A stretch of 32,000 nt of DNA from Thermococcus kodakarensis KOD1 (GCF_000009965.1 NC_006624.1:600001-632000), one strand, 5' to 3'. Shown: positions 953 to 31,833, counted from the first letter of the stretch. The notes: a model not told the origin generated them from the letters alone. Translations and numbers: made by a program.

Positions 953-1071
953 GCTTTCACCAATTCAAAATAGGGCTTTGAAGTAGTTATAGTTACCCCC
1001 GCACATGTGTGGGATGACCAAAAGGGCAATTTTTAAATACATTTGTATTCCATTTGTAGTTGGTGAAGAAA

Positions 1072-1398
1072 ATGGGAGAGACTGGGACAGACCACCCAAT
1101 CTCCGTGAGGCTTCCCGGATATGTTGTCGAAAAGATTGATGAGCTCGTGAGGGAGAAAGAGTTCAGAAGCCGCTCTGACTTCATAAAGTTCGCCGTCACG
1201 ATGGCACTGGGACAGATAATGATGGAAAAAGCGCGGAAAAGGGCAAAGAAGCTCACTCTAGAAGATCTTAAAAGAGAAGCGGAAGAGGCATGGGAGAAGC
1301 TTAAACGTGGGGAGTTCGAGGAAGAGGGGTCCGAAGTCCTAAAGGCTCTCAGGGAGATAAATGAGGAGACCAAGAGGCTTACGGGTGCAGAGGGATGA
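1072..1398 (+). CDS. Ribbon-helix-helix (CopG-like) antitoxin candidate
   Basis: The ORF spans 1060-1398, with an ATG at 1072 preceded by GGTGA (1062-1066) and TATA TTTTAAAT near 1031. The N-terminal PISVRLPGYVVEKIDELVREKEFRSRSDFIKFAV fits a strand-helix-helix pattern. The tail is acidic. There is a 4-nt ATGA overlap with the downstream PIN gene. Confidence 0.7.
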   Translation: MGETGTDHPISVRLPGYVVEKIDELVREKEFRSRSDFIKFAVTMALGQIMMEKARKRAKKLTLEDLKREAEEAWEKLKRGEFEEEGSEVLKALREINEETKRLTGAEG

Positions 1399-1835
1399 AA
1401 GTCGTCCTCGACACGAACGTCGTGCTGGCGGCCCTGATAAAGCCCGAGGGTTTATCGGCACTTCTAATCAAGGCCCTGGATGGAGAGCGGCTCATCAACT
1501 TCACGAGTGAGGATGCTCTCGACGAGCTTACCCTAAAAATTGGACTTTTAGCCGAAAAAGGAAAGATTTCTCCAGGCTGGGAAGAGACTTTAGCCCACTT
1601 CTTGAGGGGCTCCGAAATTGTCTCTCCATCCACTAGCTTTAACCTCTGCAGGGATCCGGACGACAATAAGTGGCTGGAGATATCTTATGAAGCGGGAGCA
1701 GGTTACATCCTTACCTGGGATGACGACCTCCTGAGCCTTCGAAATGAAGAAAAGGCTGTAAAACTCGGGAATCACGAGGTTAAAATCCTCAAACCCCTGG
1801 AATTCTATAGAGAGATTCTGAAATCAAAATGTTGA
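1395..1835 (+). CDS. PIN-domain ribonuclease toxin candidate (VapC-like)
   Basis: The N-terminus MKVVLDTNVVLAAL is typical of PIN domains. Later acidic positions (SEDALDEL, DPDDNKWL, TWDDDL) are also present. The gene is translationally coupled to the RHH gene. Confidence 0.75.
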   Translation: MKVVLDTNVVLAALIKPEGLSALLIKALDGERLINFTSEDALDELTLKIGLLAEKGKISPGWEETLAHFLRGSEIVSPSTSFNLCRDPDDNKWLEISYEAGAGYILTWDDDLLSLRNEEKAVKLGNHEVKILKPLEFYREILKSKC

Positions 1836-5862: not shown

Positions 5863-6753
5863 TCAGCCGAGGATTTCCCTCTTTATAACCTCGGCAATCT
5901 CAACTATGGCCTTTGAAGCCTTGGCCTCTGGGAAGGCCTCGACAACGGGCTTCAGCATGCTCATGCTCTCTGGAACGGCTCTGTCGTAGGGTATTCTTCC
6001 CAGTATCGGTATTCCTTCTTTCTCAGCCCACTCCTCAAGGCCAGTGAAGCCGGGGTTGATGTCGGCTTTGTTGATGATGAGGTAGGCCGGCTCCCTGAAG
6101 TGCTGGACGACCTTGTAGGCCCTCTGAACGTCGCTGAGCGAAGCCGGGGTAGGCTCTGCTATGAGTATGGCAACGTCTGCCCCACCGAGGCTCGCTATCA
6201 CCTGACAGCCTATTCCAGCGGCCGAATCAACTATCATGTGCTCGAGGTTGAGCTCCTTCATCAGCTTCGCGGCCCACTCCTTCTCCTCCGTGACGAGCTT
6301 TCCGCTCTCGGGCCTTCCGACGTCGAGCTGGGCCGAGATGAGCGGGAAGCCGTACTTGGTTGTCGCCTTCCTGATTACCCCTGAGCGGACTTCCTCAAGG
6401 GTTATGGTTCCGGCCACCGGGCAGACCAGGCCACAGACGTTGCAGCCCTCGCAGGTGAGCTCGTTCACGACGTAGTTGCCTTCGTCATCGATGTAGATGC
6501 ACCCGTAGGGACAGCGCTCGTAGCAGATTCCGCACCTTACGCAGCTCTCTGTGTTTATCCTGGCTATCTTGGCACCTATATGCTCCCTCTCCTCTTCCCA
6601 CTCGGTCACGCCGAGGAGCAAACCAAGGTTCGGGGCCTCAGCGTCGGCGTCAACTGCCACAAACGAGTAATCGTCCTTCAGAAGGTAGAGGAGCGAGGCC
6701 GTTATCGTGCTCTTTCCAACGCCGCCCTTACCGCTCGCTATCGCCACCTGCAT
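5863..6753 (-). CDS. MinD/ParA-superfamily P-loop ATPase with inserted 2x[4Fe-4S] ferredoxin domain (COG1149-type), copy 2
   Basis: It has a deviant Walker A SGKGGVGKST and the cluster motifs CVRCGICYERCP and CEGCNVCGLVCP. The ATG at 6753 follows GGAGGTGG, and the start overlaps the stop of copy 1 (GTGATG). Confidence 0.85.
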   Translation of the reverse strand: MQVAIASGKGGVGKSTITASLLYLLKDDYSFVAVDADAEAPNLGLLLGVTEWEEEREHIGAKIARINTESCVRCGICYERCPYGCIYIDDEGNYVVNELTCEGCNVCGLVCPVAGTITLEEVRSGVIRKATTKYGFPLISAQLDVGRPESGKLVTEEKEWAAKLMKELNLEHMIVDSAAGIGCQVIASLGGADVAILIAEPTPASLSDVQRAYKVVQHFREPAYLIINKADINPGFTGLEEWAEKEGIPILGRIPYDRAVPESMSMLKPVVEAFPEAKASKAIVEIAEVIKREILG

Positions 6754-7625
6754 CACGCACCACCTCCAAGGAACTCGGCAACCCTTTCGGCGAGGCCTTT
6801 GAATATCTCTGCCTCGGGATAGTCCGTCAGGGCTATGGGTTTTCCCTCGACGTAACTTTTGACTATGTTCTCGCTGTAGGGGATCTCAGCCACGATTTCG
6901 GCGCCGTACTTCTCCGCCAGCTCCCTGACCTTACCAACGTCTCCGAGGTCAGACCTGTTCACCACAACCCAAGTCGGGATCTTCATCAGCTTCCCGAGCT
7001 GTAGGATAAGCTCCGTGTCGTGTATGCCGAGGGGAGTGGGTTCTGTTACCGCTATGAGGAGCTTTGAGCCTTCGACTGCTTTTGAGACCGTGTTTCCAGT
7101 TCCAGCGGCCGTGTCCACCATGAGGAGACCTTCCCTGACCTCTTCGGCCCTCTTCTTCGCCGCAACCACGAGCGGCATTGACCTCTCCTCTCCCTCCCTG
7201 AGCTTCCCCGTGACGAGCGTGAAGCCGTAGGGTGTTGGGGTAACGTACGTGTGGCCTATAACTCTGAAGGCCTCTTGAATGGCCCCTGGTACAGGACAGA
7301 CTATCTCACAGGCCCTGCAGCCGGAACAGAGGGTCGGCATGAGAAAGGGCGTCCCGTCCTTCAGCGTCACTATCGCGTGCTCCTCACACACCTCGGCGCA
7401 CTTCCTGCACTTGGTGCACTTCGAGTAGTCGAAGCGCGGCATGAACTGGTTCACGGGTTCTTCGTTGGCAAGCTCAACTCCCAGAAGTATGTGGTCGTTC
7501 GGTGCCTCGACGTCAAGATCCGCCAGAGTCAGCCTGACCCCAATCTTCCTGAGCGCCACCGCGAGGTTTGTCGCGACCGTTGATTTTCCGGTTCCGCCTT
7601 TTCCACCGCTCACCGCTATCTGCAA
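6753..7625 (-). CDS. MinD/ParA-superfamily P-loop ATPase with inserted 2x[4Fe-4S] ferredoxin domain (COG1149-type), copy 1
   Basis: It has Walker A SGGKGGTGKST and the cluster motifs CTKCRKCAEVCE and CSGCRACEIVCP. The ORF runs to 7685, but a TATA-like element and GGAGGTGA lie inside that extension. A TTG at 7625 gives MQIAVSGGKGG, which parallels the paralog's MQVAIASGKGG. Confidence 0.8.
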   Translation of the reverse strand: MQIAVSGGKGGTGKSTVATNLAVALRKIGVRLTLADLDVEAPNDHILLGVELANEEPVNQFMPRFDYSKCTKCRKCAEVCEEHAIVTLKDGTPFLMPTLCSGCRACEIVCPVPGAIQEAFRVIGHTYVTPTPYGFTLVTGKLREGEERSMPLVVAAKKRAEEVREGLLMVDTAAGTGNTVSKAVEGSKLLIAVTEPTPLGIHDTELILQLGKLMKIPTWVVVNRSDLGDVGKVRELAEKYGAEIVAEIPYSENIVKSYVEGKPIALTDYPEAEIFKGLAERVAEFLGGGA

Positions 7626-7642
7626 GCTCTCACCTCCGGAAA

Positions 7643-7684
7643 TTAGGGTAGCCGAATTGGTTATAAGCTTTGTGCATACGCTCA
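7643..7684 (-). promoter_or_regulatory. Internal promoter module: TGAGCGTATGCACA operator-like element, GCTTATAAC TATA box and TTCGGCTACCCTAA iron-box-like element
   Basis: Read on the minus strand it is TAATGAGCGTATGCACAAAGCTTATAACCAATTCGGCTACCCTAATTTCCGGAGGTGAGAGCTTG. The first 28 nt match the module at 31831 in 25 of 28 positions by my manual alignment. Confidence 0.6.
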
Positions 7685-8632
7685 TTACTCCCTGCTCTTC
7701 AGCCTCCTCATGTAGAACCTCTTCCCGTTGTACTCAAGCTCTATCAACTTCCCCTCTTTCAGGAGCTTCTCAACAATGCTCCAGTCTGCGTTTGCCTTCT
7801 CCAGAAACTCCGCAACGGCGTCCTCGCGCATTGGATGGACTGAGGTTATGCTCAGCAGATCCTCCTCAACGTTACCCGTAAAGGCGAAGGCGTTCCCCTC
7901 GTAGCCGATCAGGTATTCCACGCGCTCGTCCCCAAGGATTTCGCTGAAGACCTGATATGCGTGGTTGATGACATCTTCCTTCGCAGGTTTCACCCACGGT
8001 TCCGCCGGCGGTCTCGTTGGAACGGCTATGTAGGCTTTATCCGGTTTCAGCTCCCTCAGAAATTCCGCTATCTTCTCGAACTCGTTGCCATAGTCTATCC
8101 CGTCTATCAGCATCGTCTCGGTGACTATCTTTCCCTTGAACTCCTTCCTGAACTCCAGCATGCCCTCAAGGATCTTCTCAAGGCTCAGGCTCTTGTGGGG
8201 CCTGTCAATTCTCCTCCAGAGCGGCTCACTGACAGCATCAACTTTCAGCGAGACGAAGTCAAACTTCAGAAGGTCTTCCCTGACATCTTCTCTCCAGATG
8301 AGCGAGGAGTTAGTGAGGATAGCCGGGGGGATTTCAAGGGATTTCAAAAGCTCCGCCTCCTTCCCGAGGTTTATGTCGAGCGTGGGCTCTCCATCTGGAA
8401 CGAAGGTGATGTAGTCTATCCTCTCGCTCCTCGCGAGTGCCTCCTCGACTTTCTCCTTGACTTCTCTGAAGATCAGTTCGGGCTCGTAGAAGGGCCTCCT
8501 CTTGATTTCCATTCTGAGAGTTTTCCCTATCTGACAGTAAACGCAGGCGTAGGTGCATACCTTGTCGGGGATGTTGTTCACGCCGAGGCTCCTGCCGAGC
8601 CTCCTCGAGGGGACAGGTCCAAAGGCTATCAT
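7685..8632 (-). CDS. Radical SAM protein (NifB/MoaA-related Fe-S oxidoreductase type)
   Basis: The CxxxCxxC motif occurs in CTYACVYCQIG near the N-terminus. The 315-aa ORF has GGTGGTGGT upstream of its ATG. Confidence 0.8.
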   Translation of the reverse strand: MIAFGPVPSRRLGRSLGVNNIPDKVCTYACVYCQIGKTLRMEIKRRPFYEPELIFREVKEKVEEALARSERIDYITFVPDGEPTLDINLGKEAELLKSLEIPPAILTNSSLIWREDVREDLLKFDFVSLKVDAVSEPLWRRIDRPHKSLSLEKILEGMLEFRKEFKGKIVTETMLIDGIDYGNEFEKIAEFLRELKPDKAYIAVPTRPPAEPWVKPAKEDVINHAYQVFSEILGDERVEYLIGYEGNAFAFTGNVEEDLLSITSVHPMREDAVAEFLEKANADWSIVEKLLKEGKLIELEYNGKRFYMRRLKSRE

Positions 8633-8645
8633 ACCACCACCGGAG

Positions 8646-8659
8646 TTAGGTTAGCCTAA
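8646..8659. promoter_or_regulatory. DtxR/IdeR-type iron-box-like element TTAGGTTAGCCTAA between TATA box (8662-8671) and the radical-SAM start
   Basis: The minus-strand reading is ATTTATACGCCTTTAGGCTAACCTAACTCCGGTGGTGGTATG. The 14-mer equals the first 14 nt of the corynebacterial/mycobacterial 19-bp iron-box consensus TTAGGTTAGCCTAACCTAA. Confidence 0.6.
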
Positions 8660-8726
8660 AGGCGTATAAATCTTGTGAAGAACAAAAGCAATAAACGGGA
8701 AGCACGAACAAAGGGCGGGATGGTCT

Positions 8727-9356
8727 ATGCCAAAGATAGAGCCCTTTGAGAAACACCGCGACAGGTACGAGAACTGGTTCGAGAGAAACCGCTACGCTTA
8801 CCTTTCGGAGCTTGAGGCCGTTAAGAAACTTCTACCCAAGAAAGGAAAGGGAGCTGAGATAGGCGTCGGAACCGGAAGGTTCGCGGCTCCTCTCGGCATA
8901 AAGCTCGGCGTCGAACCTTCAAAAGCGATGGCCGAGATAGCAAGGACGAGAGGAATTGAGGTCATCGAGGGAACGGCTGAAAATCTTCCCTTCGAGGAGG
9001 ACAGCATGGACTACCTTCTGATGGTCACGACTATCTGCTTCGTCGACGACCCTGAGAAAGCTTTGAAGGAAGCCTACCGCGTCCTGAAGCCGGGTGGGGC
9101 ATTGATAATCGGCTTCGTTGATAGAAACAGCCCGATAGGGAGGTTCTACGAGGAGCACAAGAACGAAAGCGTCTTTTACAAGGAGGCGAGGTTCTTCTCG
9201 ACTGAGGAACTGTTGGAACTCCTCAAAAAGGTCGGCTTCAGGGAGTTCGAGATAGTGCAGACCCTCTTCCACAGGCTCAATGAGATTAAGTCCGTCGAGC
9301 CGGTAAAGCCGGGCTATGGTGAGGGTAGCTTCGTCGTGATAAAGGCGGTGAAGTGA
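8727..9356 (+). CDS. Class I SAM-dependent methyltransferase
   Basis: Motif I is AEIGVGTGRF, and a post-I acidic residue and LKPGGALII are present. 209 aa. Confidence 0.8.
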   Translation: MPKIEPFEKHRDRYENWFERNRYAYLSELEAVKKLLPKKGKGAEIGVGTGRFAAPLGIKLGVEPSKAMAEIARTRGIEVIEGTAENLPFEEDSMDYLLMVTTICFVDDPEKALKEAYRVLKPGGALIIGFVDRNSPIGRFYEEHKNESVFYKEARFFSTEELLELLKKVGFREFEIVQTLFHRLNEIKSVEPVKPGYGEGSFVVIKAVK

Positions 9357-9603: not shown

Positions 9604-9655
9604 AAACATTTTTGTTTAACAAAAACACTTTTGTTAGCGCAAACTATTTAAACAA
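9604..9655 (+). promoter_or_regulatory. GAPN promoter element P1: AT-rich alternating half-sites TTTTGTT-T-AACAAAA-ACAC-TTTTGTT plus TATA TATTTAAA (9645-9652)
   Basis: About 44 of 52 positions are identical to 11216-11267 by manual alignment. The first 15 nt are identical to 20710-20724. Confidence 0.7.
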
Positions 9656-11267: not shown

Positions 11268-11296
11268 TAGGTTCCCATCTTTGTCCGGTGGCTGTA

Positions 11297-12931
11297 ATGA
11301 AGAGGGCAGTTTCAGTTCTCATCCTCAGCCTTCTCCTTTTCGGGGTGATGGCCAGCGGGTGCATAGGGACGAAAACAACATCGAACACCTCAACAACCTC
11401 AAGCGGAGCAACAGCCACTTCTCCGACAGCCTCAAGCCAGTTATCCACCTCTACTGCATCCTCCAACGTTGTCCCGCTTACCCTCGTTGGGCCCGATGGC
11501 TCTGTTAAAACGCTAACCCTTTCAGACCTCAAGAGCCTCCCGCAGACGGTTGGAAAGGGCGGCCTGAAAACAAAGAAGGGGAGCATCAAGAGGATTGGAA
11601 CTTACAAGGGCGTTTCTTTGAAGGATTTGCTCTCAAAGTTCGGCTGGTTATCAAAGAACTACCGTTACGTAATAACTGCCGCCGATGGGTATTCAATAAC
11701 CGCTGACTACGGCTTCATATTTGGAAAGGGATTGGACACCTACGACGAAAAGGGGAACCCGATCAACGGCTCCGTGATTCCCATCCTCGCCTACGAGTAC
11801 AACGGGGAACCGATAGAATTCACCTTGGACGGTAAGGTGTATCCCCTCAAGCTCGTCCTCGTCGGGGACGAGACGATAGTAACCCCTGGGAACCGCTGGG
11901 TCAAGGCCGTTGTGAAAATAGAGGTTGTGAAGGCCGAAACACCGGGAGAAAGCGAGAACACTGGCTATGGGGAAGTGAAAGATTTTGCCAACAGAACCGT
12001 TAAGGTGAAGAGCCCGCCGGCGAGGATAGTCTCACTCTACGGACTGGTCACGCAAATGATATACTTTCTCGGAGTTGAGGACGGCAAGAAAGTCGTGGGA
12101 AGCACTCCGCTGGCAATAAACGACGCTTTTATCGGGCTTCTGGATCCTGGCGTTAAGAACAGGATGGTCTTCGTCGGAAACCCGAGGAATGCGAACGTTG
12201 AAACCGTCAAGTCCCTGAACCCGGACGTCGTTTTCACTGCCTACTGGGGGAGCGAAAAGATAAACGAGGAAATAGAGAGCCTTGGCATTCCAGTTATAGC
12301 CCTGAACCTTGAGACGGTCGATGGATACCTCAAGGGGCTCCTGACAGTGGGCAAAGTTCTTGGAAAGGAGGAAAAAGCAGAGAAGGCAATTTCGTATTAT
12401 CGCTCCGCTGTTGACTTCGTCACAAACAGGACATCAAAGCTTAAAGAGAGGCCCAGGGTTCTTCTCGTTCAGTACAGCATGAAGGATAAGGCGTTCAAAG
12501 CTCCAGGCAAGGAGTACTTCCAGAACAGATTAATAGAGATGGCAGGTGGGGAAAGCGTTTCCTCGAACCTTCCAGGTGGCTGGAACGTAGTGAACGTCGA
12601 GCAGGTCGCGAAGTGGAACCCAGATGTGATAATCGTCGTCAGCTACTCCCCCAAGAAACCATCGGCTAAGGTTAAGGAAGAAATACTAAACGACCCCGCG
12701 TGGAAGGGCATAAAGGCCGTTAAGGAGGGCAGGGTCTACGCGATGCCGAACGATGGCGAAAGCTGGGATTACCCCGCTCCAAAGTGGGTTCTCGGCCTCT
12801 ACTGGCTCGCCAAGGTTCTCCACCCGGAGCTCTTCGGCGACCTCGATGTCAGAGCCAAAGCCGACGACTTCTATCAGAAGTGGTACGGGATAGACCCAAA
12901 TAAGGTGGAGATAACCGGTGATATGCCGTGA
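11297..12931 (+). CDS. Lipoprotein: molybdopterin-oxidoreductase-like domain fused to an FhuD/BtuF-type (iron-chelate/cobalamin class) periplasmic binding domain
   Basis: The signal and lipobox are MKRAVSVLILSLLLFGVMASGC, followed by a Ser/Thr-rich linker. The N-domain pattern is TLSDLKSLP...YKGVSLKDLL...AADGYS...ILAYEYNGEP...PLKLV...RWVKAVVKIEV. The C-terminal part resembles class-8 binding proteins. The ATG at 11297 follows GGTGG; an alternative GTG is at 11288. Confidence 0.7.
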   Translation: MKRAVSVLILSLLLFGVMASGCIGTKTTSNTSTTSSGATATSPTASSQLSTSTASSNVVPLTLVGPDGSVKTLTLSDLKSLPQTVGKGGLKTKKGSIKRIGTYKGVSLKDLLSKFGWLSKNYRYVITAADGYSITADYGFIFGKGLDTYDEKGNPINGSVIPILAYEYNGEPIEFTLDGKVYPLKLVLVGDETIVTPGNRWVKAVVKIEVVKAETPGESENTGYGEVKDFANRTVKVKSPPARIVSLYGLVTQMIYFLGVEDGKKVVGSTPLAINDAFIGLLDPGVKNRMVFVGNPRNANVETVKSLNPDVVFTAYWGSEKINEEIESLGIPVIALNLETVDGYLKGLLTVGKVLGKEEKAEKAISYYRSAVDFVTNRTSKLKERPRVLLVQYSMKDKAFKAPGKEYFQNRLIEMAGGESVSSNLPGGWNVVNVEQVAKWNPDVIIVVSYSPKKPSAKVKEEILNDPAWKGIKAVKEGRVYAMPNDGESWDYPAPKWVLGLYWLAKVLHPELFGDLDVRAKADDFYQKWYGIDPNKVEITGDMP

Positions 12932-13875: not shown

Positions 13876-14623
13876 GGGGCTGGGCTTTTCATACGGCAGT
13901 AGGGAAGTCCTCAGGAACGTTACCTTTGAGCTTAAAAAGGGCGTTGGCTGTCTCCTTGGGCCAAACGGCGCCGGAAAAAGCACCCTCCTTAAGTGCATAG
14001 CCGGAATCCTCAATGGGAACGGTAGGATAACGCTCAACGGTACTGAGCTTTCCAGGTTGAGATTGAGGGAGCGTACGAGGCTCGTAAGCTACTCCCCCCA
14101 GGAATTCTCGCTGACGTTTCCGTACACGGTCTTTCAAACCGTGCTGATGGGCAGGAACCCCCACATCGACCCCCTGAGCGGGCCGGGAAAGGTGGACGAA
14201 GAGATGGCGATGAAGGCCCTCCGCACCCTCGGACTTGAGAACCTCGCGGAGAGACCCTTCGGCGAGCTCAGTGGAGGCCAGAAAAGGCTCGTAATGATAG
14301 CCAGAACGCTCGCGCAGGGTGGAGAGCTTTTCCTCTTTGACGAGCCCACTTCGTTCCTCGACTTCAGGAACCAGCACCTCGTTCTCAGCGTTATCAGGAA
14401 GCTCTCAAAGGAGAGAACAGTGCTGGTCTCACTCCACGATCCCAACCAGGCCCTGACCTTCTGCGATACGGTTTTCCTCCTGAAAGACGGGGGGATAATA
14501 GCGAGCGGAGAACCGGCTGAAGTTCTCAACGAGGAGAATCTGATGGAGTTATACAGGATGAAAGTGAAGCGGTTTAAGGCCGACGGCGGCTTTTTCATAT
14601 ACCCCCTGGAGGTGGTTGGATGA
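13862..14623 (+). CDS. ABC transporter ATP-binding protein (FepC/BtuD type)
   Basis: Walker A GPNGAGKSTLL, signature LSGGQKRLVMIA, Walker B LFLFDEPTSFLD and H-loop SLHD. Confidence 0.9.
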   Translation: MLRVEGLGFSYGSREVLRNVTFELKKGVGCLLGPNGAGKSTLLKCIAGILNGNGRITLNGTELSRLRLRERTRLVSYSPQEFSLTFPYTVFQTVLMGRNPHIDPLSGPGKVDEEMAMKALRTLGLENLAERPFGELSGGQKRLVMIARTLAQGGELFLFDEPTSFLDFRNQHLVLSVIRKLSKERTVLVSLHDPNQALTFCDTVFLLKDGGIIASGEPAEVLNEENLMELYRMKVKRFKADGGFFIYPLEVVG

Positions 14624-15381
14624 AAAAAGTCCTCTCCCTTCTGCTCGTCCTCATGGCATGCGGGTGCATCGGGGCTTCCGAAAAACAGACGCCCAGCAAT
14701 GTTTCAACACCAAGTTATTCAAAAATTTCAACCTATCCCTTGGGAAATCCTCCAAACTGGTCAAACTGGACACTAGCTGTTCTGAATGACAACAGAACCT
14801 ACACGTGGGAAGAACTCTCAAAACTATCGAACGACACGATGAGAATACCGGATTTGAACCTCGGAAGAACCGTCGAGTGGAGGGGAGTTAGACCTCAGAG
14901 ACTTGGAAGGGGAGACTTCGTTACGGTAATAAATGAAAACGGGGAAGTGGTGAGCATACCCTATAACGTCTCAATGCTTCTGGCCATCTACATGGACGGG
15001 AAGCCGATGTCAACCCCGATAAGGCTCGTGGCGAGTCTCTCCTACGGCTGCCGGTGCAACTGGCTTCCTGGAATAAGGTTAGTGGACTTCGTGAACCGCT
15101 CCAAGGCCTTGGGGGTCTACGGCGAGGTGAACAACGAACTCTGGCTGTCCCCAAGGAGCTTTGCCGCCCTTGGAAACGGCTCGGTGCACCTGAACGAACT
15201 GCTCGATAAAGCTGACGTTAGGCCAATCGCCAGGAGGGTGATCTTCATTACACCCAACGGGGAGCTTCCATACAGCCTCGCCAAGATAAAGAAGCTGAAC
15301 CCGTTGGTTGTTTTTGAGGGGAAGTTTAAAGTGCCCTCACTGGGTATAGAAGACCTAAGAGGAATAAGGCTTGAGGGGTGA
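14620..15381 (+). CDS. Secreted lipoprotein with molybdopterin-oxidoreductase-like domain, many N-x-S/T sequons
   Basis: The lipobox is MKKVLSLLLVLMACGC. The segment TWEELSKL...VEWRGVRPQRL...LLAIYMDGKPM...PIRLV...WLPGIRLVDFV parallels the N-domain of the 11297 protein. There is a 4-nt overlap with the ATPase gene. Confidence 0.6.
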   Translation: MKKVLSLLLVLMACGCIGASEKQTPSNVSTPSYSKISTYPLGNPPNWSNWTLAVLNDNRTYTWEELSKLSNDTMRIPDLNLGRTVEWRGVRPQRLGRGDFVTVINENGEVVSIPYNVSMLLAIYMDGKPMSTPIRLVASLSYGCRCNWLPGIRLVDFVNRSKALGVYGEVNNELWLSPRSFAALGNGSVHLNELLDKADVRPIARRVIFITPNGELPYSLAKIKKLNPLVVFEGKFKVPSLGIEDLRGIRLEG

Positions 15382-15385
15382 TTGA

Positions 15386-16123
15386 ATGCTGCTTTCGGAG
15401 ATCAAGAAAAAGGCTTTGAATCTTGCAAACGGGCTTGAGCTTTTAGATTTCGGCTTTGCCCTGCCCTACACGTGGGTCTTAATTGAAGGTCCTGAAGGAA
15501 AATCCCTAGGCGTTGCAATGACCCTCCCGGAGGAGGTTCAGAGGTACACCAACTCCATAAGTGAGCCTTCCATCGAGGCCTTCATTGAAAGGATCGACAG
15601 CCTGAACGTCATCGAGAGAACCCTCGGGATAGCGGCGGTAAACGCGGTCTCCCAGTACCACCTCGACGTCTCAGACCTTCCAGATGTTGACGTGGTTGAG
15701 CTTGTTGAAGGCTTCAGTGAGGTAGCAGTGATAGGCAACATGCCACCCGTTGTCAGGGCACTCCGCGAGAAAGGAGTTAAGACCCTCGTTTTCGAGCGGA
15801 ATCCAAAGCTCTGGGACAGGGAGACGCTCAGCGACGCTCTGGAATACATTCTCCTCCCCGAGGTTGAAGCGGTCATTGTCAGCGGCTCAGCACTGGTTAA
15901 CGGAACGCTTGAGATGATCCTCGACCGGGCGAAAAAGGCGGAACTGGTAATCCTGACCGGCCCAACTGCCCAGATACACCAGGAGCTCGTTAAAGGAACT
16001 GGGATTACTCACCTCGCGGCGATGAAAGTGATAGACCTTGAAAGGGCGCTCCTCGGCCTCAAGCTCGGCTCCTTCAGGGGCTTTGAGAAGGGGAACAGGA
16101 AGTACGTGGTGGAGGTTCCGTAG
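15386..16123 (+). CDS. DUF4213/DUF364-like protein (putative heavy-metal chelation, Rossmann-like)
   Basis: 245 aa. The family assignment is from memory of the pattern (GxAxT ... IGxxxP ... VxxSGSxLVNGT). The gene is last in the chelate ABC operon. Confidence 0.5.
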   Translation: MLLSEIKKKALNLANGLELLDFGFALPYTWVLIEGPEGKSLGVAMTLPEEVQRYTNSISEPSIEAFIERIDSLNVIERTLGIAAVNAVSQYHLDVSDLPDVDVVELVEGFSEVAVIGNMPPVVRALREKGVKTLVFERNPKLWDRETLSDALEYILLPEVEAVIVSGSALVNGTLEMILDRAKKAELVILTGPTAQIHQELVKGTGITHLAAMKVIDLERALLGLKLGSFRGFEKGNRKYVVEVP

Positions 16124-16633
16124 TTATTTTGCGAACCTCCCATCATCTTTTGCCTCTGGGAGCTTGTGAACGTTTTCTTCAAGCCAGCCTGTTCTCACTC
16201 CCTCTCTGTAGTCAAATTCTGGCACGTAGGGCTTTATATCCAGGAGGGGAGTTCCATCTAGGACATCAACATCCTCAACTATCAGGACGTTTCCGCGCCT
16301 TTCAACGAGTCTCACTATCGAGATGCCGATGGGATTCGGGCGCGCGGGTGCCCTCGTGGCGAACACGCCATGGTAGTTCTCGTCCATGTATGGCCTTACT
16401 AGGAGACTCTTGAACCTCGCCCTGTGGAAGTGGTAGATCAAAATTACGTGGGAGAATCCCTCAATGTCCTTCAGTCCTTCCTCAAACTCGGGAAACACAT
16501 CAACGGTTCCTCTGATTCCCCTCGCCGCAGAGGCCTGTATGGGGACGTCTTTTGGCTCCTTGAAGGGGCTGTGAATAACTCCAATCGGGCGATAGCATAT
16601 TTCTTCCAAAGGATAGCTTTTGGCCTTGCTCAT
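16124..16633 (-). CDS. trmO: TsaA/TrmO-like tRNA methyltransferase (YaeB/UPF0066 family)
   Basis: The segments IGVIHSPFK ... FSHVILIYHFH ... RPNPIGISIVRL ... DGTPLLDIKPY are typical of the TsaA-like domain. Confidence 0.7.
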   Translation of the reverse strand: MSKAKSYPLEEICYRPIGVIHSPFKEPKDVPIQASAARGIRGTVDVFPEFEEGLKDIEGFSHVILIYHFHRARFKSLLVRPYMDENYHGVFATRAPARPNPIGISIVRLVERRGNVLIVEDVDVLDGTPLLDIKPYVPEFDYREGVRTGWLEENVHKLPEAKDDGRFAK

Positions 16634-16719
16634 TTTATCCCCCCATCAAAACCTGGGACGAAGGCTTTAAGTCTAACCCACAGCAAAAAAGATTTAGAAG
16701 CTATTTTGAACTCCCAACC

Positions 16720-20335: not shown

Positions 20336-20370
20336 TCTACCACCCCCATGCACAATTGCGTATATCGTGC

Positions 20371-20384
20371 TTAGGTATCCCTAA
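20371..20384. promoter_or_regulatory. Iron-box-like element TTAGGTATCCCTAA in the feoA 5' region
   Basis: It follows the TTAGG-N4-CCTAA pattern. It lies between the feo TATA box (plus-strand CTTAAATAAC, 20415-20424, read on the minus strand) and the feoA start at 20335. Confidence 0.55.
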
Positions 20385-20389
20385 CAACT

Positions 20390-20408
20390 TCAGAGTAGGC
20401 TAACCTAA
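20390..20408. promoter_or_regulatory. Iron-box-like element (minus-strand TTAGGTTAGCCTACTCTGA)
   Basis: By my count it matches the 19-bp DtxR/IdeR consensus in 16 of 19 positions. It lies immediately downstream of the feo TATA box. Confidence 0.6.
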
Positions 20409-20468
20409 CATTCCCTTAAATAACTTTCTGTTTGTAAAGAAATACTTGGATGTTTGAAAACCCAAGAA

Positions 20469-20487
20469 TTAGGTTAGCCTAATCTAA
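20469..20487. promoter_or_regulatory. Near-consensus DtxR/IdeR iron box TTAGGTTAGCCTAATCTAA
   Basis: It matches TTAGGTTAGCCTAACCTAA in 18 of 19 positions. It sits in the feo/mod divergent intergenic region. Confidence 0.7.
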
Positions 20488-20609
20488 CTAAAATGCTCCA
20501 AAATAGGTAGCATAGGTCAGTTGAAACCAAAAATGGATGGGTTTGAAAAAGAACTAAAAGAGTTTGAAATCACGAACAAGGCCACAGATTTGTTCCTTTT
20601 TTCGATTTC

Positions 20610-20623
20610 CGTGCATATGCACG
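20610..20623. promoter_or_regulatory. Perfect 14-bp palindrome CGTGCATATGCACG, followed by GCTTAAAAGC (TATA-like)
   Basis: It has the same GTGCATATGCAC core as 25229-25242 and is related to 31834-31847 and 7671-7684. It lies about 150 nt upstream of the modA start. Confidence 0.5.
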
Positions 20624-20709
20624 AATTAGGGCTTAAAAGCTTTTTCTTGTATCTTCTCTATTTTCAACTCCAAAACTCTGAGGCCTTGGTAAACACTTCC
20701 ACTTACTAT

Positions 20710-24360: not shown

Positions 24361-24745
24361 CGCCGAACATCTCCTCGAGGGCTTTCTCCTCCTCGCCTAT
24401 GAACCCGAGCACGCCCGCCCAGTAAACGAGAGGAAGTAAGAGCATGAAGCCACCGAAGAGGAGAGAGAATCCCGGAATCACGAGAAAGCCCCAGATGGAG
24501 TATATCGGATGCCTCACCCTTGAGTAGCAGCCCTCCGTGAGCAGTTTCCCCTTCGAGTAAGCCCTTGAGACCTGAAGGTAGCAGAGAAACCAGAGGGAGA
24601 GGCCGAGGAATACCATCAGGAACCCAAGGACTGGAAACGCGAGAAAGCTAACCCCAAGCCTCTCGTCTAGGTAAAACGCCAGAACCGCATAGATGGAAGA
24701 AAGGAGGGCAACCTTTGGAAAGATGCCCCAGAACTTCATGTTCAC
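24308..24745 (-). CDS. Membrane methyltransferase of the ICMT/PEMT-like family
   Basis: It has four hydrophobic helices. The segments SRVRHPIYS and EEKALEEMFGDGWREYAERTPRFVP fit the isoprenylcysteine carboxyl methyltransferase-like pattern. A GTG start overlaps the upstream stop (GTGA); an alternative ATG lies two codons in. Confidence 0.65.
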   Translation of the reverse strand: MNMKFWGIFPKVALLSSIYAVLAFYLDERLGVSFLAFPVLGFLMVFLGLSLWFLCYLQVSRAYSKGKLLTEGCYSRVRHPIYSIWGFLVIPGFSLLFGGFMLLLPLVYWAGVLGFIGEEEKALEEMFGDGWREYAERTPRFVPRP

Positions 24746-25161
24746 TCCTCTATCGGCGGTTTTTCGGTCTTCTTTTTCTGCACCTGCTCCCAGAGGTCGT
24801 CGAAGTTCTCCACGACCCGCTGGAGTGCAAGGTTTAGATCCCTCGTCCTCGTGAAGAATGCCACCTTGTTGGTCTTGTCCCGGATTCTCAGGAAGTTCGG
24901 GCCCATCCTGAAAGCTGCTAAAACGTCAACGTCGAGGAGCTGGCTGACGACTGCCTTGAACTTCCTCGGGTCGCCGTGCCCCTCGTCGTGTTCTTCCTCT
25001 ATGTCTTTAGCCTTGTTGTGCCTCTTTTCGAGGAGTTTTATGCTTCCATCCTCGCAGATTTCGTAGATCGCGAAGAACTCTGAATCACCGTAGTGTGCAT
25101 CTATGAGGTGTTCATCATCTTCCATTCCGAACGCGACTTTGAGGCATCTCTTCTCAGCCAT
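24742..25161 (-). CDS. NifX/NifB-C-terminal-like (dinitrogenase FeMo-cofactor-binding fold) protein, paralog 1
   Basis: The sequence LKVAFGMEDDEHLIDAHYGDSEFFAIYEI...VDVLAAFRMGPN fits the family pattern. The ORF extends to 25212, but a TATA box (CTTATAAAAC) and AGGTGA lie inside it. The start is the ATG at 25161 (or 25167). Confidence 0.6.
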   Translation of the reverse strand: MAEKRCLKVAFGMEDDEHLIDAHYGDSEFFAIYEICEDGSIKLLEKRHNKAKDIEEEHDEGHGDPRKFKAVVSQLLDVDVLAAFRMGPNFLRIRDKTNKVAFFTRTRDLNLALQRVVENFDDLWEQVQKKKTEKPPIEE

Positions 25162-25202: not shown

Positions 25203-25216
25203 TTAGGCTCACCGAA
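25203..25216. promoter_or_regulatory. Iron-box-like element TTAGGCTCACCGAA in the divergent NifX-like promoter region
   Basis: It follows the TTAGG-N4-CC(T/G)AA pattern. The minus-strand reading TTCGGTGAGCCTAA resembles 7643-7656 (TTCGGCTACCCTAA). Confidence 0.45.
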
Positions 25217-25228
25217 AACTTTAAATGC

Positions 25229-25242
25229 TGTGCATATGCACA
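25229..25242. promoter_or_regulatory. Perfect 14-bp palindrome TGTGCATATGCACA between divergent NifX-like genes
   Basis: It is flanked by TTTAAAT (25220-25226). It is 33 nt upstream of the ATG at 25275 and 68 nt upstream of the ATG at 25161 on the other strand. Confidence 0.6.
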
Positions 25243-25274
25243 AAATAATAGACGAAAGAATGGAGGTGGTTGGC

Positions 25275-25898
25275 ATGAGGATCGCTGTCCCGACTAACGG
25301 TGGAGGTAGAGAAGACACGGTCGCCCCGGTCTTCGCGAGGGCACCGGCATTTTACATAGCGGACGTTGACGAGAACGGGAACATCGTCAGCGAGAAGGTC
25401 ATTCAGAACAGCGCCGCAATGGCCGGCGGAGGGGCCGGACCAATGGCAGTCCAGACCCTCATCAACGAGGGCGTTGAGGCAATAATAGCTCCTCAGGTCG
25501 GCCCGAACGCACTCGGTGCCATACAGGCCGCTGGTATCAGGCTCTACCAGGTCGCTCCAGGGACACCAGTGGAGGAGGCCATAAAGAGCGTCGTGAGCGG
25601 TGAAGCGGCCCAGTTCACGGCACCCGCTCCGCAGGCTCCCGTCGCTCCAGCGGCCCCTGCAACTCCGGTAGCACCGGTGCCGCCAGCGTACGGCCCAGCC
25701 TACCCGGCTTATCCTGCCTACGGCTACGGTTTCGGCCCTGGTTGGGGCAGAGGCTGGGGCCGCGGATGGGGTAGAGGACGCGGCTTCGGCAGAGGTTGGG
25801 GCAGAGGAGGAAGAGGCTGGGGAGCGAGGCTCGGCTACTGCCCGTGGACAGGAATGCCCAGCAGGAGAACCCTCCGCCGGTATTACGGCTGGTGGTGA
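25275..25898 (+). CDS. NifX/NifB-C-terminal-like domain fused to a Pro/Ala linker and a GW/RG-repeat tail
   Basis: The ATG at 25275 follows GGAGGTGG. The N-domain reads MRIAVPTNGGG...VAPVFARAPAFYIADVDENG...EAIIAPQVGPNALGAIQAAGIRLYQ. The tail reads APAPQAPVAPAAPATPVAPVPPAYGPAYPAYPAYGYGFGPGWGRGWGRGWGRGRGFGRGWGRGGRGWG...LGYCPWTG...RRYYGWW. Confidence 0.8.
   Translation: MRIAVPTNGGGREDTVAPVFARAPAFYIADVDENGNIVSEKVIQNSAAMAGGGAGPMAVQTLINEGVEAIIAPQVGPNALGAIQAAGIRLYQVAPGTPVEEAIKSVVSGEAAQFTAPAPQAPVAPAAPATPVAPVPPAYGPAYPAYPAYGYGFGPGWGRGWGRGWGRGRGFGRGWGRGGRGWGARLGYCPWTGMPSRRTLRRYYGWW
25740..25823 (+). repeat. Coding micro-repeat (GGN-TGG-GGN-MGN units) specifying GWGRGWGRGWGRGRGFGRGWGRGGRGWG
   Basis: Read directly: GGTTGGGGCAGAGGCTGGGGCCGCGGATGGGGTAGAGGACGCGGCTTCGGCAGAGGTTGGGGCAGAGGAGGAAGAGGCTGGGGA. 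Confidence 0.85.
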
Positions 25899-25931
25899 GG
25901 CCTTTCCCTTTAACTTTTTGAGGTGCCCAAA

Positions 25932-31768: not shown

Positions 31769-31833
31769 TCGCTCACCTCCGTGGGTAACGTTGATGGGAC
31801 GTTTTTTAAGCATTTTGGAACAGACTTGTGTAA

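What the first reader, a model, noticed from the sequence alone, without database searches (positions are those of the whole stretch)
5863..8672. Radical-SAM plus two MinD-ferredoxin ATPases: a Nif-like metallocluster toolkit with no assigned function
Three co-oriented genes encode a CxxxCxxC radical-SAM enzyme and two paralogous MinD/ParA-type ATPases. Each ATPase carries an inserted 2x[4Fe-4S] ferredoxin domain, and they are translationally coupled (GTGATG overlap). With the three NifX/NifB-C-like carriers elsewhere in the window, the parts list mirrors nitrogenase cofactor assembly: radical-SAM chemistry, a NifH-like P-loop ATPase with Fe-S centres, and NifX-type carriers. No nitrogenase genes are visible in this window. 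As far as I know, the function of this gene set in such archaea is not established. The shared promoter signals (separate findings) argue that the genes act together.
Basis: partly seen in the sequence, partly recalled or inferred. Interest (0 to 1): 0.8.

Follow-up and report, generated by a model that had tools for sequence, protein, structure and literature searches.

The report
Iron-regulated ORP-type Fe-S ATPase pair plus radical-SAM
These Thermococcus kodakarensis genes (TK0703, TK0702, TK0701) are an archaeal, iron-regulated version of the poorly understood "orange protein" (ORP) gene set of anaerobes, and a radical-SAM enzyme turns out to be a recurrent extra partner of that gene set in many lineages.

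Summary
On the minus strand lie a radical-SAM gene (TK0703, 8632-7685) and two paralogous MinD/Mrp-class P-loop ATPases. These are TK0702 (7625-6753) and TK0701 (6756-5863). Each carries an inserted 2x[4Fe-4S] ferredoxin domain, and the TK0702 stop overlaps the TK0701 start.

The genes are not NifH or NifB family members. They belong to the anaerobe-wide family typified by Orp3/Orp4 of the Desulfovibrio ORP complex, whose function is still unknown.

- The A-type/B-type ATPase pair is adjacent in 25 of 39 sampled loci from Bacteria and Archaea. It is fused, always A then B, in 31 natural fusion proteins.
- NifX-like genes and curated MrpORP homologues flank the pair in other phyla.
- 41 of 84 loci of the TK0703-type radical-SAM family have such genes within 4 kb.
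- In Thermococcales, the radical-SAM gene and the ATPase pair each have their own promoter with a DtxR-type iron operator. Similar operators sit near FeoAB, the NifX/IssA-like genes and SmsCB.
- Thermococcales A subunits have lost two switch-region cysteines that nearly all other sampled A subunits keep.

Best reading: an iron-starvation-induced, ATP-driven heterodimer that handles Fe-S or metal-sulfide clusters together with NifX-like carriers. The chemistry is unproven.

The parts
7685..8632 (-). TK0703, a radical-SAM enzyme (315 aa) with an N-terminal GPVPSRRLGRSLG motif, a CxxxCxxC motif (C26, C30, C33) and a C-terminal winged-helix-like domain. It has no auxiliary-cluster cysteines.
   Evidence: ORF and translation. 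Pfam PF04055 at 65.6 bits. 100% identity to BAD84892. Family alignment and invariant motifs. Weak MarR-like match of residues 220-308.
8643..8671 (-). TK0703 promoter. It has a TATA box (TTTATA, 8670-8665), then a perfect DtxR-type operator (TTAGGCTAACCTAA, 8659-8646) and then a GGTGGTGG ribosome-binding site.
   Evidence: Sequence. Motif search found 7 hits against 0.19 expected. The same layout is seen in T. peptonophilus, P. horikoshii and P. pacificus.
7626..7684 (-). Spacer carrying a second promoter for TK0702-TK0701. It has a GCGTATGCAC half-palindrome (7682-7670), a TATA-like CTTATAA (7667-7661), a DtxR-like box (TTCGGCTACCCTAA, 7656-7643) and GGAGGTGA.
   Evidence: It is conserved in T. 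peptonophilus and is a perfect match in P. horikoshii.
6753..7625 (-). TK0702, the 'A-type' MinD/Mrp-class ATPase (290 aa from TTG 7625) with an inserted 2x[4Fe-4S] ferredoxin domain (about residues 62-118). It lacks the switch I and switch II cysteines found in most relatives.
   Evidence: AlphaFold2 model with pLDDT 94.6. Foldseek hits to MinD, FleN, ApbC, HypB and NifH.
5863..6756 (-). TK0701, the 'B-type' paralogue (296-297 aa) with the same ferredoxin insert. Its start overlaps the TK0702 stop. It keeps only the switch II cysteine (C184).
   Evidence: The protein was detected and rose 3.7-fold under heat stress and 2.0-fold under oxidative stress (PMC4473059).
5841..5845 (-). Oligo-T run just downstream of the TK0701 stop. 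It is a probable archaeal terminator.
   Evidence: Sequence. The terminator role is inferred.
8727..9356 (+). TK0704, a class I SAM methyltransferase that diverges from TK0703. The same family sits next to the radical-SAM gene or the ATPase pair in distant clusters.
   Evidence: Pfam Methyltransf_11. The family recurs in 9 loci. NCBIfam gives only weak hits.
24742..25161 (-). NifX-like gene 1 (139 aa).
   Evidence: Pfam Nitro_FeMo-Co. The cluster is named NifB/NifX family. Hit to an HMM built here from NifX-like neighbours.
25203..25243 (.). Divergent control region between NifX-like gene 1 and the IssA-like gene. It has a DtxR-like box (25203-25216), a TATA-like TTTAAAT and the palindrome GTGCATATGCAC (25228-25243).
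25275..25898 (+). IssA-type protein: a NifX-like domain plus a Gly/Arg/Trp-rich tail that contains one cysteine.
   Evidence: Pfam. Sequence. It fits the description of IssA in PMC5524996.
31833..32000 (+). Composite promoter (palindrome 31836-31848, TATA-like element, DtxR-like box 31859-31872) followed by the start of NifX-like gene 3 (ATG 31894). The gene is truncated by the window end.
20354..20520 (.). Intergenic region between FeoA and the ModA/WtpA-like gene, holding two DtxR-type boxes (20395-20408 and 20469-20482). It belongs to the same putative regulon.
   Evidence: FeoA and modA identified by NCBIfam.

Best explanation
TK0702 and TK0701 are the archaeal counterparts of Orp3 and Orp4.

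Proposed assembly. The two paralogous deviant-Walker-A (MinD/Mrp/NifH-class) ATPases form an ATP-dependent A/B heterodimer. Each subunit carries a 2x[4Fe-4S] ferredoxin module inserted between switch I and switch II.

Proposed role. The dimer works with NifX-fold cluster carriers. Here these are two NifX-like proteins and an IssA-type thioferrate protein; in other lineages an MrpORP-type carrier is also present. ATP binding and hydrolysis would gate electron transfer from the ferredoxin modules. That would allow an Fe-S or metal-sulfide cluster to be reductively assembled, released or handed over on the carrier.

Regulation. In Thermococcales the system belongs to an iron regulon. DtxR-type operators lie between the TATA box and the start codon, which implies repression when Fe(II) is plentiful and induction under iron shortage, alongside FeoAB, the NifX/IssA-like genes and the SmsCB Fe-S assembly genes.

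Radical-SAM partner. TK0703 is a recurrent accessory partner, often accompanied by a TK0704-type methyltransferase. It most likely modifies or generates a small ligand or the carrier-bound cluster. It is not part of the core, because most ATPase-pair loci lack it.

Shown versus inferred. Shown: architecture, pairing, fusions, synteny, operators and expression of the TK0701 protein. Inferred: the heterodimer, Fe-S occupancy, ATPase-gated electron or cluster transfer, the direction of regulation, and the radical-SAM substrate.
For: Architecture
- The signature lysine and Walker A, the switch I Asp, the Walker B Asp and 8 ferredoxin cysteines are invariant in 41 diverse homologues.
- The AlphaFold2 model is confident (pLDDT 94.6). 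Its nearest structures are MinD, FleN, ApbC, HypB and NifH.

Heterodimer
- A-type and B-type genes are adjacent in 25 of 39 MinD-ferredoxin loci sampled from many bacterial and archaeal phyla, and 2 further loci hold fusions.
- Among cluster representatives, 31 of 31 two-module fusion proteins are A-like at the N-terminus and B-like at the C-terminus.
- A and B have distinct conserved signatures.

Link to carriers and ORP
- A NifX-like gene is present in 24 of 39 loci and an Mrp-like gene in 16 of 39.
- Mrp-like neighbours in L004, L008 and L046 score 557, 510 and 531 bits against the 450-bit cutoff of the NCBIfam MrpORP equivalog.
- The literature states that Orp3 and Orp4 are paralogues with two [4Fe-4S] motifs, that they complex with ORP and MrpORP, and that MrpORP loads clusters onto Orp proteins in vitro (PMC6345978).

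Radical-SAM link
- TK0703-type genes lie within 10 kb in 7 of 39 ATPase-centred loci.
- 41 of 84 radical-SAM loci have a gene of the A/B/Mrp/NifX group within 4 kb, typically in the order X-A-B-R. The next most frequent neighbours are MBL-fold (12 loci), TK0704-like methyltransferase (9), DUF5320 (8) and FeoB (4).
- The R-A-B trio is kept in Pyrococcus horikoshii in an otherwise different neighbourhood.

Iron regulation
- TTAGGYTARCCTAA occurs 7 times against 0.19 expected. It matches the DtxR consensus TTAGGTTAGCCTAACCTAA (PMC7762939).
- The operators are conserved at the same positions in three other Thermococcales.
- TK0107 is the DtxR homologue (PMC12827226).
- Fur-family genes sit in 5 distant clusters.
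- In Palaeococcus the radical-SAM gene abuts FeoAB.
- The TK0701 protein rises under heat and oxidative stress.
Against: - No biochemical data exist for any Thermococcales member.
- Orthology to D. vulgaris Orp3/Orp4 was not tested by direct sequence comparison. It rests on architecture, synteny and the MrpORP model.
- In T. kodakarensis the NifX-like genes are 16-25 kb away, and no MrpORP-type gene is in the window.
- Thermococcales A subunits lack both conserved switch cysteines (0 of 12, against 47 and 48 of 48 in other A-type proteins). Whatever site those residues form elsewhere is missing here, so the mechanism may differ.
- The only phenotype reported for ORP genes in Desulfovibrio was interpreted as a cell-division defect.
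- In Palaeococcus the radical-SAM gene is separate from the ATPase pair.
- Binding of DtxR to these boxes, and the sign of regulation, are inferred from position only.
Confidence: 0.55

Rival explanations
1. The ATPase pair is a dedicated ATP-driven low-potential reductase, in the manner of NifH, BchL, CfbC or activases. Its main client would be the neighbouring radical-SAM enzyme, whose [4Fe-4S] cluster it reduces, or another hard-to-reduce enzyme. The NifX-like genes would be only loosely related.
For: Each subunit combines a P-loop ATPase with two ferredoxin clusters. NifH and BchL appear among the structural neighbours. The radical-SAM gene is adjacent in Thermococcus, Pyrococcus and many metagenomic loci.
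Against: Most ATPase-pair loci lack the radical-SAM gene (32 of 39), whereas NifX-like genes are present in 24 of 39. Palaeococcus separates the two. No catalytic NifDK, BchNB or CfbD-like partner is present in the window.
Confidence: 0.15
2. The system handles molybdenum- or tungsten-sulfide species, for example thiotungstate or thiomolybdate storage, detoxification or delivery. This follows the Mo-Cu-S cluster found on the Desulfovibrio orange protein.
For: ORP as isolated carries a [S2MoS2CuS2MoS2] cluster (PMC6345978). The window holds a ModA/WtpA-type ABC transporter, a ModD-like fragment and Oxidored_molyb-like domains. Palindrome and operator motifs lie near the modA-like gene.
Against: The operators are of the DtxR (iron) type and are shared with FeoAB and SmsCB. 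Distant clusters carry Fur-family regulators and FeoB, not Mo/W genes. T. peptonophilus and P. horikoshii keep the trio without adjacent Mo/W transport genes.
Confidence: 0.1
3. The pair is a MinD-like spatial regulator of cell division or cell organisation, as first proposed for the ORP complex in Desulfovibrio.
For: The ORP operons are described as 'putatively involved in cell division' (PMC6345978, PMC3897727, PMC4641369). MinD is the top structural neighbour.
Against: NCBIfam MinD models score 58-80 bits against cutoffs above 200. No MinC or MinE genes are nearby. The genes lie in an iron regulon and co-occur with cluster carriers. The ferredoxin inserts have no role in MinD biology.
Confidence: 0.07
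4. TK0703 is an unrelated housekeeping enzyme, the tRNA wyosine synthase Taw1/TYW1 as the IMG annotation names it, and lies next to the ATPases by chance.
For: JGI names several orthologues 'wyosine synthetase'. There are weak profile matches to the MJ0257 and PH TYW1 structures (E about 6e-5).
Against: TK0703 has only three cysteines, so it lacks the auxiliary cluster that TYW1 needs (established knowledge of TYW1). No NCBIfam model passes its cutoff. Linkage to ORP-type genes recurs in 41 of 84 loci, and the gene has its own DtxR-type operator.
Confidence: 0.03

Closest known systems
[quoted passage not shown]
   Same: It also has two adjacent paralogous P-loop ATPases, each with two [4Fe-4S] ferredoxin motifs. 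They are genomically associated with NifX-fold proteins and Mrp-type carriers, are restricted to anaerobes, and have an unresolved function (PMC6345978). Homologous clusters sampled here contain curated MrpORP equivalogs.
   Different: In T. kodakarensis the pair sits with a radical-SAM gene and a methyltransferase, not with ORP, MrpORP or DUF134. Regulation is through DtxR-type operators rather than sigma54/OrpR. The A subunit has lost the family's switch I and switch II cysteines. Direct sequence orthology to DVU2103/DVU2104 was not tested.
Mrp/Nbp35/ApbC Fe-S cluster carriers and ATPase-type HypB
   Same: They share the deviant Walker A motif and the dimeric SIMIBI fold. They are among the top Foldseek hits (ApbC 8zkc, HypB 5auq and 3vx3) and have a metallocentre-delivery role.
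   Different: TK0702 and TK0701 have no CxxC bridging motif. NCBIfam ApbC scores 46 and 31 bits against a cutoff of 348. The ferredoxin insert is absent from every solved structure found.
Nitrogenase Fe protein NifH (and BchL/CfbC), with NifB and NifX
   Same: NifH is also an ATPase dimer with Fe-S centres. Most relatives (not TK0702) have a switch II cysteine 7 residues after the Walker B Asp, as C132 is in NifH (NifH numbering from memory). NifX-fold carriers and a radical-SAM enzyme are present in the neighbourhood.
   Different: NifH family models fail (26 bits against 394). No NifDK- or NifEN-like partner is present. TK0703 has no NifB auxiliary-cluster ligands and no fused NifX domain. 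The organism has no nitrogenase genes in this window.
IssA thioferrate storage protein of Pyrococcus furiosus
   Same: The gene at 25275-25898 has the NifX-like domain plus a Gly-rich cationic tail with a single cysteine, as described for IssA. It shares promoter motifs with the ATPase pair.
   Different: IssA is a storage and carrier protein, not an ATPase. A functional link between IssA and Orp3/Orp4-type ATPases has not been reported in the papers read here.

Membership tests
Radical SAM superfamily | CxxxCxxC motif and a core-domain match | tested here: met
   C26/C30/C33 are present. PF04055 scores 65.6 bits against a cutoff of 29.5.
TYW1/Taw1 (wyosine synthase) | A second (auxiliary) Fe-S cluster bound by additional conserved cysteines, and family-level sequence similarity | tested here: not met
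   The protein has only 3 cysteines. No NCBIfam model passes its cutoff. The profile match to MJ0257 is only E = 6e-5.
NifB | A radical-SAM core with ligands for the K1/K2 auxiliary clusters, usually fused to a NifX-like domain | tested here: not met
   TK0703 has 3 cysteines and no Nitro_FeMo-Co domain. NCBIfam gives no nifB hit. The Foldseek match to NifB is generic (E = 2e-6, TM about 0.5).
NifH/BchL/CfbC ATP-dependent reductases | Full-length family match, a bridging [4Fe-4S] cluster held by two cysteines per subunit, and a NifDK-type partner | tested here: not met
   nifH scores 26.4 bits against 394. Fer4_NifH matches residues 22-68 only. TK0702 has no cysteine outside the ferredoxin insert. 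No partner genes are present.
Mrp/Nbp35/ApbC | Deviant Walker A motif plus a conserved CxxC motif | tested here: not met
   The Walker A motif is present. There is no CxxC motif outside the ferredoxin insert. ApbC scores 46 and 31 bits against a cutoff of 348.
MinD (cell division) | Family-level match, with a MinC/MinE or equivalent partner and a membrane-targeting helix | tested here: not met
   minD_arch scores 58.5 and 79.8 bits against a cutoff of 201.75. No Min partners are in the window. The membrane-targeting helix was not analysed.
ORP-complex ATPases (Orp3/Orp4 type) | A P-loop ATPase with two [4Fe-4S] ferredoxin motifs, occurring as an adjacent paralogous pair | tested here: met
   This matches the description of Orp3 and Orp4 in PMC6345978.
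ORP-complex ATPases (Orp3/Orp4 type) | Genomic association with the NifX-fold ORP and with MrpORP | tested here: inconclusive
   This is met for the family: NifX-like genes occur in 24 of 39 loci, and MrpORP equivalogs score 510-557 bits against a cutoff of 450. In T. kodakarensis the NifX-like genes are 16-25 kb away, though they share promoter motifs, and no MrpORP is in the window.
ORP-complex ATPases (Orp3/Orp4 type) | Direct sequence orthology to DVU2103/DVU2104 and a physical ORP complex | not testable with these tools
   The D. vulgaris sequences could not be obtained, and the defining paper (PMC3133258) is not held.
IssA (for the gene at 25275-25898) | An IPR003731/NifX-like domain plus a Gly-rich cationic C-terminal tail containing the single cysteine | tested here: met
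   Pfam Nitro_FeMo-Co at 75 bits. The tail reads GRGWGRGWGRGRGFGRGWGRGG...GYCPW. Criteria are from PMC5524996.
DtxR/IdeR operator | A palindrome matching TTAGGTTAGCCTAACCTAA, placed so that it can occlude the promoter | tested here: met
   There are perfect 14-nt core matches at 8646-8659 and 20469-20482, with 7 hits against 0.19 expected. The consensus is from PMC7762939. Actual binding by TK0107 was not tested.

The most novel reading that the evidence does not exclude
The TK0703-type radical-SAM enzyme, often with its partner methyltransferase, together with the Orp3/Orp4-type ATPase heterodimer and NifX-fold carriers, forms a nitrogenase-independent assembly line. This line would build or remodel a complex Fe-S or metal-sulfide cluster, possibly one that is carbon-modified or methyl-modified. 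Functionally it would parallel NifB, NifH and NifX, would be widespread in anaerobes including DPANN archaea, and would be switched on by iron shortage. It could act on IssA thioferrate stores.
Probability: 0.12. Interest if true: 0.9.

Novelty: new variant of a known kind. Interest (0 to 1): 0.6.

Why it matters
The Orp3/Orp4-type ATPase pair is one of the most widespread 'known unknowns' of anaerobic metal metabolism. This search found 435 clusters at 50% identity with E <= 1e-30, spanning many bacterial phyla, methanogens, Asgard archaea and DPANN archaea. It still has no function and no solved structure.

T. kodakarensis is genetically tractable, and this locus gives concrete handles:
- an iron (DtxR-type) regulatory link to Feo, SmsCB and IssA;
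- a recurrent radical-SAM partner not mentioned in the ORP papers read here;
- natural A-B fusions that argue for a heterodimer;
- a lineage-specific loss of two conserved cysteines, which offers a natural comparison for the role of that site.

If the system proves to mobilise or assemble clusters on NifX-fold carriers, it would fill a gap in how strict anaerobes traffic Fe-S units. It would also bear on the evolutionary origin of the nitrogenase maturation machinery.

Tried and rejected
- The literature search for Orp3/Orp4/DUF5320 returned papers on eukaryotic oxysterol-binding proteins.
- My guessed locus tags TK0621-0624 were wrong. The correct tags were derived from the accessions.
- The two key papers, Fievet 2011 (PMC3133258) and Leyn & Rodionov 2015 (PMC4285986), are not held. 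What I say about the DvH gene cluster beyond PMC6345978 is therefore from memory. I could not check whether the Thermococcales DtxR regulon has already been predicted to include these genes.
- The supplement of the T. kodakarensis iron transcriptome paper did not contain TK0701-0704. The T. gammatolerans cadmium paper was uninformative.
- A third homologue search, using the radical-SAM profile, returned the same Thermococcales set. The radical-SAM model therefore had a shallow alignment and only pLDDT 71.6. Its Foldseek hits (viperin, Mmp10, HydE, NifB, LipA, TYW1; TM about 0.45-0.5) do not discriminate between functions.
- A phmmer search of TK0703 against the PDB gave only a spurious match to a designer PPR repeat protein.
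- The look-up of encoding contigs had no record for the Palaeococcus ATPase.
- I considered and rejected NifH, NifB, TYW1, MinD and ApbC membership (see the membership tests).

Full report
WHAT IS THERE

The window is from Thermococcus kodakarensis KOD1. The radical-SAM protein is 100% identical to BAD84892 (TK0703), and the upstream ATPase is BAD84891 (TK0702).

Three genes lie on the minus strand:
- TK0703, 8632-7685, 315 aa;
- TK0702, an ORF from 7685 to 6753;
- TK0701, 6756-5863.

TK0703 matches only the generic Radical_SAM family (65.6 bits). It has exactly three cysteines, C26, C30 and C33.

Both ATPases match the ParA/CbiA P-loop families and 4Fe-4S dicluster families. They are 31% identical to each other. 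In an alignment with 39 diverse relatives, the deviant Walker A motif (xKGGxGK[ST]), the switch I Asp, the Walker B Asp and all eight ferredoxin cysteines are invariant.

TK0702 most likely starts at TTG 7625, not at 7685. This is the RefSeq start, giving 290 aa. It follows GGAGGTGA, and orthologues begin at the same point.

- 24742-25161 on the minus strand;
- an IssA-type gene at 25275-25898 with a GRGW-rich tail;
- a third gene starting at 31894 that is cut off by the window end.

The rest of the window is rich in metal-related genes:
- an Fe(III)-type ABC transporter (TK0706-0708);
- FeoAB (TK0714-0716);
- a ModA/WtpA-type transporter;
- DUF364, a TrmO-like gene and an MBL-fold gene;
- the SUF-like minimal system gene SmsB (977 bits against a cutoff of 650) with its SufC-like ABC ATPase partner (here called SmsC).

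WHAT FAMILY THE ATPASES BELONG TO

No solved structure contains this architecture. Sequence and fold searches against the PDB hit only the P-loop part (MinD, FleN, FlhG, ApbC, HypB, NifH, BchL, Soj) or isolated ferredoxins. The AlphaFold2 model is confident, with pLDDT 94.6. The curated NCBIfam models for MinD, ApbC, NifH and MrpORP all score far below their cutoffs.

A search of 50%-identity cluster representatives found 435 clusters with E <= 1e-30. Among the best 150 hits are 31 proteins of about 600 aa that are tandem fusions of two complete modules. In all 31, the N-terminal half is closer to TK0702 and the C-terminal half is closer to TK0701.

A scan of one genome per species returned 39 loci with genuine members. 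They come from Zixibacteria, Planctomycetota, Dehalococcoidia, Desulfobacterota, Clostridia, Bacteroidota, Spirochaetota, Synergistota and Verrucomicrobia. Archaeal loci come from Micrarchaeota, Methanothrix, Thermoplasmatota, Thorarchaeota, Methanomethylicota and others. Across these loci:
- an A-type gene is directly followed by a B-type gene in 25, and 2 more hold fusions;
- a NifX-like gene is present in 24;
- an Mrp-like gene is present in 16.

Three of the Mrp-like neighbours pass the curated MrpORP equivalog cutoff, at 557, 510 and 531 bits against 450.

This pattern matches the ORP (orange protein) gene set of Desulfovibrio vulgaris. There, Orp3 and Orp4 are paralogues with two [4Fe-4S] motifs each. 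They form a complex with ORP, which binds a Mo-Cu-S cluster. MrpORP, an Mrp domain fused to a NifX-like domain, can load Fe-S clusters onto Orp proteins in vitro. The physiological role is only 'putatively cell division' (PMC6345978, PMC8359166, PMC3897727).

I therefore place TK0702 and TK0701 in the Orp3/Orp4-type family. One caveat applies: I could not align them directly with DVU2103 and DVU2104.

THE RADICAL-SAM GENE IS A GENUINE, RECURRENT PARTNER

TK0703 defines a tight family. Its features are an N-terminal [FY]GPVPSRRLGxSLG motif, CxYxCxYCQxG[RK]T, GEPTL, NRP and TRPPAE motifs, and a C-terminal winged-helix-like domain.

TK0703-type genes lie within 10 kb in 7 of the 39 ATPase-centred loci.

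I also collected 80 metagenomic loci centred on this radical-SAM family, at 48-80% identity to TK0703. In these, the order NifX - A - B - radical-SAM recurs many times. Of 84 radical-SAM loci overall, 41 have a gene of the A/B/Mrp/NifX group within 4 kb. No other family comes close:
- MBL-fold, 12 loci;
- TK0704-type methyltransferase, 9;
- DUF5320, 8;
- FeoB, 4.

Among loci with at least 3 kb of sequence on both sides, 7 of 17 have A or B within 5 kb, and 9 of 17 have a NifX-like gene within 7 kb.

Pyrococcus horikoshii keeps the radical-SAM - A - B trio in an otherwise different neighbourhood. In T. peptonophilus the trio lies only about 3 kb from the NifX-like and IssA-like genes. KOD1 therefore has extra genes inserted between them, running from the aldehyde dehydrogenase at 9612 (TK0705 by numbering, the GAPN tag as I remember it) to the ModA/WtpA-type transporter. 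Palaeococcus pacificus is the exception: its radical-SAM gene sits next to FeoAB, and the ATPase gene is elsewhere on the chromosome.

TK0703 is not TYW1/Taw1, despite the IMG name, and it is not NifB. It has no auxiliary-cluster cysteines, no family model passes its cutoff, and its structural neighbours are generic (viperin, Mmp10, HydE, NifB, LipA, TYW1; TM about 0.45-0.5, on a model with pLDDT 71.6). Its substrate remains unknown.

REGULATION

The 14-nt palindrome TTAGGYTARCCTAA occurs seven times in the window against 0.19 expected. It matches the core of the DtxR consensus TTAGGTTAGCCTAACCTAA (PMC7762939).

- A perfect copy lies between the TATA box and the ribosome-binding site of TK0703.
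- A weaker copy occupies the same position in the spacer upstream of TK0702.
- Further copies lie in the FeoA/ModA-like intergenic region (two copies), between NifX-like gene 1 and the IssA-like gene, and between SmsC and NifX-like gene 3.

Both the TK0703 box and the TK0702 box are conserved in T. peptonophilus, P. horikoshii (a perfect box upstream of the A gene) and P. pacificus. T. kodakarensis encodes a DtxR homologue, TK0107 (PMC12827226).

A second palindrome, GTGCATATGCAC, occurs seven times against 0.22 expected. Together with the box it forms a composite promoter: palindrome, TATA, DtxR-like box, ribosome-binding site. This layout is shared by TK0702, NifX-like gene 1 and NifX-like gene 3.

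They support co-regulation, and they specifically point to iron. Three further observations fit:
- Fur-family genes occur in five distant clusters.
- FeoB lies next to the radical-SAM gene in four loci.
- The TK0701 protein has been detected and rises 3.7-fold under heat stress and 2.0-fold under oxidative stress (PMC4473059).

A THERMOCOCCALES-SPECIFIC TWIST

Most family members have two further cysteines:
- One is in switch I. Its position varies: DCD in the mixed set (86% of A-type, 71% of B-type proteins) or DVDCPN in DPANN archaea.
- The other is in switch II, in the motif G(T/I)x-C, often His-Cys. It is present in 92% of A-type and 100% of B-type proteins.

The switch II cysteine lies seven residues after the Walker B Asp. 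That is the spacing of Cys132 in NifH; the NifH numbering is from my own knowledge.

All 12 Thermococcales A-type proteins lack both cysteines, whereas 47 of 48 and 48 of 48 other A-type proteins have them. TK0701 keeps only the switch II cysteine. If these residues form an inter-subunit metal or cluster site, which is inference, Thermococcales have lost it.

HOW IT MOST LIKELY WORKS

Shown:
- two paralogous, coupled ATPases, each with a ferredoxin insert;
- natural fusions in the order A then B;
- conserved linkage with NifX-fold carriers, MrpORP and a specific radical-SAM family;
- iron-type operators.

Inferred:
- The two proteins form an ATP-sandwich heterodimer, as other deviant-Walker-A ATPases do.
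- Nucleotide-driven switch movements control electron flow from, or cluster exchange at, the ferredoxin modules. These are inserted between switch I and switch II, which is topologically where NifH carries its cluster ligand.
- The clients are clusters held on NifX-fold proteins, including IssA thioferrate.
- The system is derepressed when Fe(II) is scarce.
- The radical-SAM enzyme, sometimes with a methyltransferase, performs an accessory modification.

My confidence in this general picture is about 0.55. The rivals are a dedicated ATP-driven reductase for the radical-SAM enzyme (0.15), handling of Mo/W-sulfide species (0.10), a MinD-like cell-organisation role (0.07), and an unrelated tRNA enzyme (0.03).

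NOVELTY AND VERDICT

The finding is genuine and is more than chance. It is not a new kind of system. It is an archaeal, iron-regulated variant of the ORP-type gene set, whose function is a long-standing open question.

Four things appear to be new relative to the papers I could read:
- the recurrent radical-SAM (and methyltransferase) partner;
- the A-B fusions;
- the DtxR-type and composite promoters that tie the pair to the NifX/IssA-like genes, Feo and SmsCB;
- the loss of the conserved switch cysteines in Thermococcales.

I could not check Leyn & Rodionov 2015, which may already list these genes in a predicted DtxR regulon.

Interest is 0.6.

Noticed in passing
window 7670-7682, 20609-20624, 25228-25243, 31833-31848: A second palindromic motif, GTGCATATGCAC, occurs 7 times against 0.22 expected. 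It sits 11-14 nt from DtxR-like boxes in the promoters of TK0702, NifX-like gene 1 and NifX-like gene 3, and is perfectly conserved upstream of the P. horikoshii ATPase gene. It is probably the site of a second, unidentified regulator.
   Followed up: partly
window 25275-25898 (+) and 25923-26177 (+): The first gene is an IssA-type protein with a long GRGWGRGWGRG tail. It is followed by an 84-aa ORF that starts MPKMPRGYGRGMGRGGRFG and ends in a hydrophobic segment. The N-terminus of that ORF resembles, as I recall it, the Gly/Arg-rich start of DUF5320 proteins, which recur in ORP-like clusters elsewhere, but Pfam gave no hit.
   Followed up: partly
window 29691-31846 (-): The SufB-like gene is an SmsB of the SUF-like minimal system (977 bits against a cutoff of 650), with a SufC-like ATPase (here called SmsC) upstream. 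It diverges from NifX-like gene 3, and the two share one control region.
   Followed up: partly
window 11288-12931 (+) and 14620-15381 (+): The substrate-binding protein of the Fe(III)-type ABC transporter (TK0706) has an extra N-terminal domain with a match to Oxidored_molyb. The unannotated 253-aa gene after the transporter has a faint match to the same domain. These are unusual fusions with no obvious explanation.
   Followed up: no
window 15386-17382; L001 7877-9906; distant loci L004, L029, L040, L118, L121: TrmO-like, MBL-fold, DUF364 and TK0704-like methyltransferase genes lie in the same region in Thermococcus. TrmO_N (6 loci), MBL (13), the methyltransferase (9) and ARMT1/DUF89 (9) also recur next to ORP-type ATPase pairs in unrelated phyla. 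This suggests a larger conserved module.
   Followed up: partly
A3 alignment (one search hits); L006, L050: The ATPase pair is common in DPANN archaea (Woesearchaeota, Micrarchaeota, Aenigmarchaeota, Diapherotrites, Pacearchaeota) and appears in a MAG labelled Saccharibacteria. Organisms with very small genomes therefore keep it.
   Followed up: no
window 20521-20700 (+): The ModA/WtpA-like ORF as listed starts at TTG 20521, but its first roughly 100 nt contain a palindrome and box-like promoter elements (20609-20640). The real start is probably further downstream.
   Followed up: no
window 993-1835: A PIN-domain gene (1395-1835) is preceded by a ribbon-helix-helix ORF (1060-1398). This is a VapBC-type toxin-antitoxin pair unrelated to the finding.
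   Followed up: no
window 23821-24360 (-); L163 10300-10806; L001 7351-7890: A DUF2250 protein of unknown function (archaea-specific according to Pfam) lies near the NifX-like gene or the ATPase pair in T. kodakarensis, T. peptonophilus and P. horikoshii.
   Followed up: no
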